Source of the DNA: a virus
Lineage: Duplodnaviria; Heunggongvirae; Uroviricota; Caudoviricetes
DNA: 64,000 nucleotides
IMG/VR virus record: IMGVR_UViG_3300014204_000107
Coordinates: 43,468-107,467 of that record
Reading direction: 5' to 3' (one strand)
This document shows, piece by piece, positions 26,165 through 26,590 of this stretch. The position numbers and the translations under genes were made by a program. Each line of letters starts with the position of its first letter. Position 1 is the first letter of the stretch. Below the pieces are notes generated by a model that searched no databases, was not told where the DNA came from, and was given only the letters and a program-made list of their open reading frames with translations.

Positions 26165-26590
26165 GTATTTAAGGTGGCAACTTGCTGAGTTACTTCAACA
26201 CATATGAAAACAACACTTAGCATTCTTTTTCCCCTAAAATTATTTAAATATTTACAAGTGGCAATAAATGAGTTACTTCAAAATCAGACGCGGGCTTTAG
26301 TGCCCGCACCCAAAAGCCTCATTTTACCATTCCCTTGTACTGATATTTGCAAGTAGCAATAAATGAGATACTTCGGTTCTAATTGGTTCAACTCCAATAG
26401 AAGCTCCCTTCGGGGTTGGCTTTTAAAAAAACTCATTTAAATATTCTCTTGCGATGATATTTGTGGTAGTGACACGTTGAGTTACTTCAATCTGTAAATT
26501 TGACAAAAACACTCAACAACAATTTCTCCACAAAGATTTTAGAGCCACCATTGACGCCAAGCGACGATGGTGGCTTTTTTATTGCAGAAT
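26165..26590 (+). ncRNA. array of four tandem ~100-nt structured RNA units sharing the core GAGTTACTTCAA, each closed by a stem; unit 3 carries a T-arm-like GGTTCAACTCC and a UUCG hairpin; candidate Y-RNA (YrlA-like) array
   Basis: Repeated core at about 26185, 26267, 26366, 26479; complementary flanks (AAATGAG/CTCATTT; TTGAGT/ACTCAA); ORF-free; immediately upstream of the Ro60 gene. Confidence 0.45.
26543..26590 (+). terminator. rho-independent terminator (GCCACCAT-loop-ATGGTGGC + T6) closing the RNA array
   Basis: 8-bp perfect stem plus T-run. Confidence 0.6.

What the first reader, a model, noticed from the sequence alone, without database searches (positions are those of the whole stretch)
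26165..26590. Four-unit array of structured small RNAs with a tRNA-like T-arm immediately upstream of a Ro60/TROVE gene: candidate phage Y-RNA (YrlA-like) array
The 0.45-kb ORF-free segment splits into four units of roughly 100 nt. Each carries the 12-nt core GAGTTACTTCAA (GAGATACTTCGG in unit 3). Each core is embedded in a helix closed by complementary flanks: TGCTGAGT/ACTTAGCA, AAATGAG/CTCATTT (units 2 and 3), TTGAGT/ACTCAA. Unit 2 also has an internal GCGGGC-TTTAGT-GCCCGC hairpin. Unit 3 contains GGTTCAACTCC, a tRNA T-stem-loop lookalike, next to a CCC-UUCG-GGG tetraloop hairpin. The array ends in a strong intrinsic terminator, 80 nt before the Ro60 start. In bacteria, Ro60 (Rsr) genes are flanked by Y RNAs whose YrlA class mimics tRNA (T-arm-like module) and uses a conserved helix to dock Ro60. 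A four-copy tandem array in a phage, each unit with its own promoter-like TATTT(A/G)C box, is unusual and points to a phage-borne Ro60 RNP.
Basis: partly seen in the sequence, partly recalled or inferred. Interest (0 to 1): 0.8.

Follow-up and report, generated by a model that had tools for sequence, protein, structure and literature searches.

The report
Four tandem phage Y-RNA genes beside Ro60
The spacer in front of a phage Ro60 gene encodes four small structured RNAs of a large Y-RNA family that the curated Rfam models do not detect, so a known kind of RNA-protein partnership turns out to be more common and more modular than recorded.

Summary
Window 26171-26531 (+) holds four tandem units of 66, 83, 102 and 69 nt. 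Each carries the core GAG(U/A)UACUUC(A/G)(A/G). A terminator follows, then a TROVE/Ro60 + vWA gene at 26670-28118.

The same unit design recurs on the Ro60 strand just upstream of Ro60: in 78 of 81 related phage loci and 60 of 76 bacterial loci. No other neighbouring gene is conserved.

The design has five parts:
- a 6-bp terminal helix with one bulged base;
- an inner 7-8-bp helix;
- an invariant single-stranded UACUUC;
- a variable insert;
- a 3' AUUUUCUC motif.

Covariation is strong (97-98% of cells paired; 103 double changes against 31 in shuffles). A covariance model that contained only unit 2 finds exactly these four sites in the 64 kb.

Relatives whose inserts hold T and D arms match Rfam YrlA below threshold. 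In one of them, Infernal aligns ACUUCGAAUGC column for column with YrlA's proposed Ro60-binding motif.

So these are Y RNAs: three minimal ones and one (unit 3) with a T arm but no D arm. None meets the Rfam YrlA criteria. Per-unit promoters and rarity of the array are not supported. Ro60 binding and expression are inferred, not shown.

Verdict: known kind, new variant.

The parts
25919..26170 (+). Stretch upstream of the array with no long ORF; presumed to hold the promoter of the array
   Evidence: Only one mechanical ORF is listed here, 60 aa on the - strand at 25961-26143. Two sigma-70-like matches on the + strand at 25927-25954 and 26018-26046 are no more than chance would give. The role is inferred only.
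26171..26236 (+). Unit 1: minimal Y RNA, 66 nt. Terminal helix 26172-26174 and 26176-26177 pairs with 26231-26235 (U26175 bulged). Inner helix 26183-26190 pairs with 26215-26222. Core at 26187-26198.
   Evidence: R1 model 31.8 bits, E 6e-6; not in the training set. The MFE fold shows the same two helices.
26255..26337 (+). Unit 2: Y RNA, 83 nt, with an inserted GC hairpin (26290-26295 with 26302-26307). Terminal helix 26255-26258 and 26260-26261 pairs with 26332-26337. Inner helix 26266-26272 pairs with 26318-26324. Core at 26270-26281.
   Evidence: R1 51 bits (this unit was in the training set). MFE z-score -2.7.
26350..26451 (+). Unit 3: Y RNA, 102 nt, with a T-arm-like hairpin (26382-26398, loop UUCAACU) and a second hairpin (26399-26424, UUCG loop). 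There is no D arm. Terminal helix 26350-26353 and 26355-26356 pairs with 26446-26451. Inner helix 26360-26367 pairs with 26432-26439. Core at 26365-26376.
   Evidence: R1 57.3 bits, E 1e-12; not in the training set. This subtype is conserved in L177, L179, L200, L192, L163 and others, with an invariant UUGGUUCRAYUCCAA.
26463..26531 (+). Unit 4: minimal Y RNA, 69 nt. Terminal helix 26463-26466 and 26468-26469 pairs with 26526-26531. Inner helix 26476-26482 pairs with 26511-26517. Core at 26479-26490.
   Evidence: R1 43.7 bits, E 5e-9; not in the training set. The MFE fold equals the family fold.
26543..26581 (+). Intrinsic terminator that closes the array: stem AGCCACCAT...ATGGTGGCT followed by TTTTTT
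   Evidence: (inverted repeat I8). A terminator-like hairpin lies between the last unit and Ro60 in 40 of 65 related phage loci.
26670..28118 (+). Ro60 (TROVE + vWA) gene, 482 aa; the presumed protein partner
   Evidence: Pfam TROVE E 3e-19, with weaker vWA matches. PHROG 850 'RNA-binding protein', E 1e-38. The closest solved structure is Thermus phage phiLo Ro60 (9KOP/9L5Y), E 1.5e-21. D320, S322 and S324 (a DxSxS pattern) are invariant across the three aligned proteins.

Best explanation
Window 26171-26531 encodes four tandem Y-RNA genes that form a module with the Ro60 gene directly downstream.

Each RNA pairs its 5' and 3' ends into a two-part stem. The outer part is a 6-bp helix with one bulged base. 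The inner part is a 7-8-bp helix, separated from the outer one by an asymmetric internal loop (YRA on the 5' side, AAUUUU on the 3' side). The stem presents an invariant single-stranded UACUUC(R) at the base of a variable apical module.

By position and by alignment, UACUUC(R) corresponds to the 5'-strand motif that the YrlA literature proposes as the Ro60 (Rsr) contact. I infer that phage Ro60 binds there and on the adjoining stem.

The variable apical modules are an A-rich loop in units 1 and 4, a GC hairpin in unit 2, and a T arm plus hairpin in unit 3. I infer that they act as effector or gating modules: they either tether Ro60 to different partners (PNPase in the studied systems) or control access to its cavity.

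Spacers of 11-18 nt and a single terminator suggest one precursor transcript that is processed into the four RNAs, as happens for tRNA arrays.

Shown here: the repeats, the structure with covariation, the linkage to Ro60 and the strand bias, and the homology of the core to the YrlA motif. Inferred: expression, processing, Ro60 binding and the downstream function.
For: - A covariance model R1, built from 24 short units of which only unit 2 is from the window, finds exactly the four units in 64 kb, all on the + strand.
- On a structure-blind MAFFT alignment, the 14 pairs are formed in 96.7% of cells. There are 103 double-change cells against 31 +/- 5 in shuffles. Sliding the partners drops pairing to 45-57%.
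- RNAalifold on 49 units finds the inner helix on its own, with 7 of 8 pairs compensatory.
- On 139 model hits, 97.9% of cells are paired, with 668 double changes against 205.
- Within the window itself, units 2 and 3 differ by a compensatory GG/CC to AG/CU change.
- A conservative control with sequence-only anchors gives outer pairs 0.61 against 0.39 +/- 0.016.
- All 139 hits in phage loci and all 150 hits in bacterial loci lie on the Ro60 strand. Nearly all sit within about 800 nt upstream of Ro60.
- WTACTTC occurs upstream of Ro60 in 78 of 81 phage loci and 60 of 76 bacterial loci: 209 copies on the + strand against 7 on the - strand, and 13 times denser than elsewhere in the loci.
- Of nine window proteins around the array, only Ro60 recurs in the 162 related loci.
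- Related units with T and D arms match Rfam YrlA at 28-45 bits, E 1e-6 to 4e-2.
- Infernal aligns ACUUCGAAUGCUA of L134 with the YrlA consensus acggCgaAUGCuu column for column.
- G, U, A, C, U, U, C of the core are 99-100% invariant in the 139 units.
- The same core appears upstream of Ro60 in Streptomyces phage BRock and Caulobacter phage CcrPW and downstream of Ro60 in Thermus phage phiLo.
- Published precedent: Y RNAs lie within 4 kb of Ro60, on the same strand, in 254 bacteria and 22 phages (PMC4201824). Phage phiLo Ro60 binds RNAs encoded next to it and also binds PNPase (PMC12135203).
Against: - There are no expression or binding data.
- No Rfam Y_RNA or YrlA hit appears in the window even at E<=10.
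- The published motif GNCGAAN0-1G is absent from all four units, which read UUCAAC, UUCAAA, UUCGGU and UUCAAU.
- Folding energies are only modestly better than shuffles (z -0.5 to -2.7) and are no better than the opposite strand.
- Unit boundaries used for the terminal helix were first chosen by pairing, which biases that helix. The control and the model hits outside the training set reduce this concern but do not remove it.
- Whether Ro60 contacts the UACUUC loop, the bulged terminal helix, or both is unknown.
Confidence: 0.8

Rival explanations
1. The units are conserved leader/trailer scaffolds of a tRNA-type processing system. They would be tRNA-derived precursors or pseudogenes handled by RNase P, RNase Z or similar enzymes, and their linkage to Ro60 would be only genomic. 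Ro60 would not bind them as Y RNAs.
For: Units are packed like tRNA genes, with 9-25-nt spacers. One unit sits inside a 25-tRNA array (L043). Bacterial loci place tRNA arrays next to the units. Some units enclose sequences that tRNA finders call tRNAs.
Against: Most units hold no tRNA-like insert at all: 91 of 139 are shorter than 100 nt. The invariant UACUUC aligns with the YrlA Ro60-binding motif. The linkage is to Ro60, not to tRNA arrays: the window has no tRNA within 6 kb, while 78 of 81 phage Ro60 loci carry the core. The acceptor stem of one 'embedded tRNA' that I checked by eye (csAssE-Sib tRNA-Lys) forms only 4 of 7 pairs.
Confidence: 0.07
2. The array is a cis-acting leader of the Ro60 mRNA. 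The units would be Ro60-binding decoys on the 5' UTR that feed back on Ro60 translation or on read-through of the terminator, rather than free small RNAs.
For: The array has the same strand and sits directly upstream. In some relatives the last unit ends 1-30 nt from the Ro60 start codon, or overlaps it. No separate Ro60 promoter was identified in 26582-26669.
Against: A strong terminator separates the array from Ro60 here and in 40 of 65 related phage loci. Units also occur downstream of Ro60 (L182, L184, L188, phiLo) and 1.5 kb away inside a tRNA array (L043). Known Y RNAs are free RNAs (PMC4201824).
Confidence: 0.06
3. The repeats are DNA-level promoter or operator sites, or iterons, bound by a protein.
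For: A short AT-rich box (TATTTA/G) precedes each unit. The core is a repeated 12-mer.
Against: Compensatory changes between positions 40-140 nt apart keep Watson-Crick pairing in 97-98% of cells. DNA-binding sites do not require this. The strand bias is strict, 289 of 289 model hits. Inserts vary and include tRNA-like modules. ATATTTR is a common heptamer in this genome, with 126 copies.
Confidence: 0.01

Closest known systems
Bacterial and phage YrlA (Rfam RF02553; Chen et al. 2014, PMC4201824)
   Same: Both are encoded next to Ro60 on the same strand, with the 5' and 3' ends paired into a stem. A conserved 5'-strand motif sits at the base of a variable module. In T+D-bearing relatives the core ACUUCGAAUGC aligns column for column with YrlA's ACGGCGAAUGC. 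Unit 3 has a T arm with a canonical 7-nt UUCAACU loop, followed by a hairpin at the place of YrlA's acceptor-like stem.
   Different: No window unit reaches any YrlA score. None has a D arm, so none has a full tRNA-like domain. The motif reads UUC(A/G)(A/G) rather than GNCGAA. The family adds an outer bulged helix, and an inner helix that ends just before the motif, both beyond the ends of the YrlA model. [quoted passage not shown]
Salmonella YrlB (short Y RNA without a tRNA-like domain)
   Same: It is a short Ro60-bound RNA encoded in tandem with YrlA next to rsr, and it shares the 5' motif with YrlA (PMC4201824). Units 1, 2 and 4 are analogous minimal Y RNAs.
   Different: According to Chen et al., YrlB orthologues were found only in Salmonella enterica serovars. 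No sequence similarity could be tested, because I held no YrlB sequence or model.
Thermus phage phiLo Yrl1 and Yrl2 with phiRo60 (PMC12135203; PDB 9KOP, 9L5Y)
   Same: It is a phage Ro60 with RNAs encoded next to it. PhiRo60 is the closest solved relative of the window protein (E 1.5e-21). The proposed role is recruitment of host PNPase.
   Different: Yrl1 and Yrl2 were picked upstream of Ro60 from CGAA motifs and RNAfold. The family described here is defined by covariation and the UACUUC core. In phiLo, the elements that look like this family lie downstream of Ro60.
Metazoan Y RNA (Rfam RF00019) and the Xenopus Ro60-Y RNA complex
   Same: Both have a terminal stem formed by the two ends, a single bulged nucleotide in a conserved helix, a large variable loop, and several paralogous Y RNAs per genome.
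   Different: There is no hit to RF00019 at E<=10. The conserved sequence GGUCCGA/UUGACU is absent. The bulged helix here is GNRG.../...CYC.

Membership tests
Y RNA (Ro60-associated ncRNA, general class) | Encoded close to a Ro60/TROVE gene, on the same strand (prokaryotic members) | tested here: met
   The array ends 139 nt before the Ro60 start. The same linkage holds in 78 of 81 phage loci and 60 of 76 bacterial loci, and all 289 model hits lie on the Ro60 strand.
Y RNA (Ro60-associated ncRNA, general class) | An RNA of roughly 80-130 nt whose 5' and 3' ends pair into a long stem enclosing a large loop | tested here: met
   Units are 66-102 nt. The two-part stem is supported by covariation and by MFE folds.
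Y RNA (Ro60-associated ncRNA, general class) | Physical binding to Ro60 and accumulation as a stable small RNA | not testable with these tools
   This needs RNA-seq or Northern blots, plus RIP or EMSA.
YrlA (Rfam RF02553) | Score at or above the Rfam gathering threshold (69 bits) | tested here: not met
   There is no YrlA hit in 25900-26700 even at E<=10. Relatives with T+D inserts reach only 28-45 bits. No YrlA match reached the gathering score in the 15 related phage loci or the 20 bacterial loci scanned at that threshold.
YrlA (Rfam RF02553) | tRNA-like domain: T arm, acceptor-like stem-loop and D arm | tested here: not met
   Units 1, 2 and 4 have none of these. Unit 3 has a T arm and a following hairpin but no D arm. 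ARAGORN and the Rfam tRNA model find nothing in the array.
YrlA (Rfam RF02553) | 5' motif GNCGAAN0-1G (proposed Rsr contact) | tested here: not met
   The literal motif is absent from all four units. The core is its positional homologue, with GG replaced by UU, as shown by the Infernal alignment of a related unit.
Metazoan Y_RNA (Rfam RF00019) | Match to the covariance model, and the GGUCCGA/UUGACU bulged helix | tested here: not met
   No hit at E<=10, and the sequence is absent.
tRNA | Cloverleaf detected by ARAGORN or by Rfam RF00005 | tested here: not met
   The only tRNA in the window is at 33035-33107.

The most novel reading that the evidence does not exclude
The two-helix frame with its UACUUC loop may be a general, exchangeable 'Ro60 docking cassette'. 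Phages and mobile islands of Bacteroidota and Verrucomicrobiota would use it to present many different cargo RNAs to Ro60. The cargoes seen here are bare loops, T-arm minihelices, permuted tRNA-like domains, tRNA-like sequences in native order that tRNA finders call as tRNAs, and structured inserts of 200-300 nt or more.

Arrays such as this one would then encode a set of adaptors that retarget one Ro60 ring to several host partners or substrates during infection. In the tRNA-bearing units, Ro60 could gate the release or repair of tRNAs.
Probability: 0.2. Interest if true: 0.8.

Novelty: new variant of a known kind. Interest (0 to 1): 0.55.

Why it matters
Ro60-Y RNA particles are conserved from bacteria to humans and are a major autoantigen. 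Very few prokaryotic Y RNAs have been characterised, and short ones without a tRNA-like domain have escaped computational discovery, as Chen et al. 2014 themselves note.

This locus led to a covariation-supported definition that captures about 290 units in about 130 phage and bacterial loci, none of which reaches the Rfam YrlA threshold where tested. The definition gives:
- a usable model for annotating Y RNAs;
- a concrete, invariant candidate Ro60 contact (UACUUC) to mutate;
- culturable systems in which to test it.

It also suggests that phages carry sets of Y RNAs with different effector modules, which bears on how phages manipulate host RNA decay and repair.

Tried and rejected
- **Rfam on the window.** At the gathering threshold and at E<=10 on the region, only chance-level hits appeared (freshwater-2, Srn266, MIR9481, HIV-1_SL4).
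- **Megablast of 20 kb against phage genomes.** No match.
- **DNA pattern scan of viral contigs** for two cores 68-98 nt apart.
- **First 3'-end finder based on pairing alone.** It truncated many units, so I replaced it with a combined score.
- **MAFFT alignment of all 49 short units.** It was out of register at the 3' end, so the terminal helix was tested on a 24-sequence subset with one spacer length.
- **Sequence-only anchoring.** It was noisy, for example mis-anchoring unit 4 and picking up a coding-region core at 49700. I kept it only as a conservative control.
- **Promoter searches.** The sigma-70 scan, TAnnTTTG and flank logos gave no support for a promoter per unit and did not identify the array's promoter.
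- **Synteny of neighbouring proteins.** HD, metallophosphoesterase, GH16, and the 83-, 445-, 139- and 218-aa ORFs and the SPFH protein are not conserved with Ro60. No RtcB or RNA ligase was found among the ORFs scanned between 15.7 and 35.1 kb.
- **Weak model hit at 17580-17619** (E 0.09). It lies in a coding region, lacks the core, and I judged it to be chance.
- **Resemblance to human Y1.** A resemblance of GGUAGUGA...GAGUUACUUCAA to GUAGUGAGUUAUCUCAA of human Y1 was recalled from memory. It is not supported by the Rfam Y_RNA model, so I dropped it.
- **Supplements of Chen et al. 2014.** They are not held, so their phage list and alignments could not be checked.

Full report
**1. The observation**

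The segment 26165-26590 contains the described repeats. The cores are GAGTTACTTCAA at 26187, 26270 and 26479, and GAGATACTTCGG at 26365. These are the only exact matches to GAGWTACTTCRR in the window.

The ORF at 26670-28118 is a TROVE/Ro60 protein with a vWA domain (PHROG 850). D320, S322 and S324 (a DxSxS pattern) are invariant among the three aligned proteins. Its closest solved relative is Ro60 of Thermus phage phiLo.

The window comes from a 299-kb metagenomic contig. It is AT-rich (about 33-38% GC) and carries phage-type accessory genes. The nearest Ro60 in GenBank phages is in a 635-kb uncultured phage. A large phage is therefore plausible, although no structural gene was identified among the window ORFs I scanned.

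**2. Relatives show what the units are**

Ro60 relatives at 42-58% identity were fetched: 80 loci from viral contigs and 80 from bacterial assemblies. The bacterial set is mostly Saprospiraceae and Verrucomicrobiota and includes the isolate Prosthecobacter fluviatilis.

Almost every locus carries WTACTTC on the Ro60 strand in the 800 nt upstream of Ro60. This holds for 78 of 81 phage loci and 60 of 76 bacterial loci. There are 209 and 122 copies on the Ro60 strand, against 7 and 4 on the other strand. The density is about 13 times that elsewhere in the same loci.

None of eight other proteins around the window array is conserved alongside Ro60 in these loci; one, the metallophosphoesterase, recurs in a single phage locus. 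The RNA units plus Ro60 are thus the conserved module.

**3. Anatomy of a unit**

Reading the units side by side gives one design:
- 5' NNNG, then one bulged base (U in 76%), then RG, then YRA;
- a 7-8-nt strand ending in GRG;
- W-UACUUC-R;
- a variable insert, often ending in AAAAACAC;
- the complement of the 7-8-nt strand;
- (A)AUUUUCUC, whose CYC and the next 3 nt pair with the 5' end.

In the window the outer helices are AGG-U-GG/CCCCU, CAAG-U-GG/CCCUUG, CAAG-U-AG/CUCUUG and GUGG-U-AG/CUCCAC. The four copies already covary among themselves.

**4. Tests of the structure**

- RNAalifold on a MAFFT alignment of 49 short units recovers the inner helix, with compensatory changes at 7 of 8 pairs.
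- On a structure-blind MAFFT alignment of 24 units with one spacer length, the 14-pair structure is formed in 96.7% of cells. It shows 103 double-change cells against 31 +/- 5 in shuffles, and 45-57% pairing when partners are slid by 1-3 columns.
- A covariance model (R1) built from that alignment contains only unit 2 of the window. With filters off it finds exactly four hits in the 64 kb, all on the + strand: 26350-26451 (57 bits), 26255-26337 (51), 26463-26531 (44) and 26171-26236 (32). The next hit has E 0.09.
- R1 finds 139 units in the phage loci and 150 in the bacterial loci, every one on the Ro60 strand.
- On the 139-unit alignment, 97.9% of cells pair, with 668 double changes against 205. 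This alignment is fitted to the model, so the figure leans towards the structure.
- Unit ends were first chosen by pairing, so I repeated the outer-helix test with ends set by sequence motifs alone. Despite mis-anchored cases, pairing was 0.61 against 0.39 +/- 0.016.
- Folding energies alone are weak evidence (z -0.5 to -2.7, with the opposite strand comparable).

**5. Link to known Y RNAs**

Rfam holds YrlA (RF02553, gathering score 69 bits). The window units give no YrlA or Y_RNA hit even at E<=10.

Many related units carry a T arm, a hairpin and a D arm in the YrlA order. These match YrlA over its full length at 28-45 bits, with E 1e-6 to 4e-2. Units of Streptomyces phage BRock and Caulobacter phage CcrPW do the same at about 30 bits.

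In the Infernal alignment of L134 3809-3916, ACUUCGAAUGCUA is placed column for column on the YrlA consensus acggCgaAUGCuu. That stretch is the published motif GNCGAAN0-1G, which Chen et al. propose as the Rsr contact (PMC4201824).

The invariant core of this family (G, U, A, C, U, U, C at 99-100%) is therefore the positional homologue of that motif, with GG replaced by UU. In the window it has relaxed to UUCAA or UUCGG.

The same core appears with other terminal motifs upstream of Ro60 in BRock (four units) and CcrPW (eight units). It also appears downstream of Ro60 in phiLo. The core is thus the universal part, and the outer helix is specific to each clade.

**6. The window's four units**

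Units 1 and 4 are minimal, with an A-rich loop only. Unit 2 carries a GC hairpin.

Unit 3 belongs to a recurrent subtype with an invariant UUGGUUCRAYUCCAA. This is a 5-bp stem with a 7-nt UUCAACU loop that fits the T-loop pattern. It is followed by a hairpin of variable sequence at the place of YrlA's acceptor-like stem, but there is no D arm.

So the locus has no complete tRNA-like domain. This differs from the generalisation in PMC4201824 that each species has at least one.

**7. Transcription**

Spacers between units are 18, 12 and 11 nt here and mostly 9-25 nt across the family. The flanks are AU-rich without a conserved box. ATATTTR is a common heptamer, with 126 copies in the window. No sigma-70-type or Bacteroidetes-type promoter lies inside the array.

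One terminator closes the array here, and a terminator-like hairpin does so in 40 of 65 related phage loci. In L043 a unit lies between tRNA genes.

I infer a single precursor that is processed. Promoters for each unit are not supported. The promoter of the array itself was not identified.

**8. Mechanism**

By analogy with Deinococcus, Salmonella and phiLo (PMC4201824, PMC12135203), the RNAs would dock on Ro60 through the conserved 5'-strand motif and stem. Their variable modules would gate the Ro60 cavity or tether it to partners such as PNPase. This step is inference.

**9. Novelty**

Phage Y RNAs next to Ro60 are published, so the kind is known. Three things are new:
- a frame defined by covariation, with an outer bulged helix and a UACUUC core, that the Rfam YrlA model does not capture at its threshold;
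- minimal members in tight arrays;
- the range of inserts.

I found no paper in the held library that mentions UACUUC together with Ro60.

My classification is a new variant of a known kind, with moderate interest.

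Noticed in passing
L205 (Thermus phage phiLo, MH673673.1), about 4515-4578 and 4706-4786: Two elements with every hallmark of this family lie just downstream of phiRo60 and overlap the annotated hypothetical CDS phiLo_25. 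The hallmarks are a bulged terminal helix, an inner helix, GGGUACUUC, and a 3' ACUUUCC. R1 scores are E 0.02 and 0.004. The published Yrl1 and Yrl2 were chosen upstream from CGAA motifs, so phiLo's conserved-type Y RNAs may be different RNAs from those studied.
   Followed up: partly
L289 (phage csAssE-Sib, OR575929.1) 1999-2412; also L043 4727-4853, L239, L245, L248, L259, L263: Sequences that tRNA finders call tRNAs lie inside Y-RNA frames, with the acceptor stem continuing the frame. Those in csAssE-Sib are the record's annotated tRNA-Tyr and tRNA-Lys. The one acceptor stem I checked by eye pairs poorly (4 of 7), so these may be tRNA-like modules in native order rather than working tRNAs.
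   Followed up: partly
L248 377-806, and the tRNA arrays in L234, L236, L245, L247, L281 and others: In bacterial assemblies (Verrucomicrobiota, Saprospiraceae) the Y-RNA array plus Ro60 sits next to large tRNA arrays. In L248 it also sits next to a GOLLD RNA (159 bits, above the gathering score). This looks like a mobile or prophage module of tRNAs, Y RNAs and Ro60.
   Followed up: no
L001 about 3625-3910, and the same position in L002, L124-L133 and others: A second, long unit of about 250-300 nt starts GCAAACAUAGCGAUAG...GAGAUACUUCGA and ends ...CUUAGGCUAAAUUUUCUUGUUUGC. It has the same core and a variant frame around a large structured insert of unknown nature. R1 does not detect it, so unit counts per locus are underestimates.
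   Followed up: no
L288 (Bacteroides phage PhiCrAssBcn17, OQ221552.1) 3701-3778: A cultured crAss-like phage has one unit of the family directly after its TROVE gene (R1 28.8 bits, E 3e-5). This offers an experimental system.
   Followed up: no
window 33035-33107 (+): This is the only tRNA in the window (Rfam 42.6 bits). ARAGORN reports an undetermined identity with a two-base 'anticodon (tt)', which suggests an unusual anticodon loop.
   Followed up: no
window 25913-25936 and 26237-26260: An AT-rich 24-mer recurs at 79% identity: AAATAATAAAAATATTTATATGTG and AAATTATTTAAATATTTACAAGTG. One copy follows the stop of the 83-aa ORF and the other lies in the spacer before unit 2. It could be a transcription or processing signal, or chance in AT-rich DNA.
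   Followed up: no
L203 (Streptomyces phage BRock) 6079-6242: A sub-threshold manA RNA match (49.7 bits against a gathering score of 55.2, E 4e-10) lies between tRNA genes just downstream of the phage's Ro60.
   Followed up: no
window 18183-18956, 19059-20081, 23293-25631, 31055-32983, 59149-60687: Accessory genes near the module are an ADP-ribosylglycohydrolase, DUF932, an HD phosphohydrolase, a metallophosphoesterase, GH16, an SPFH/Band 7 protein, and a nicotinamide phosphoribosyltransferase. None is linked to Ro60 in related loci.
   Followed up: partly
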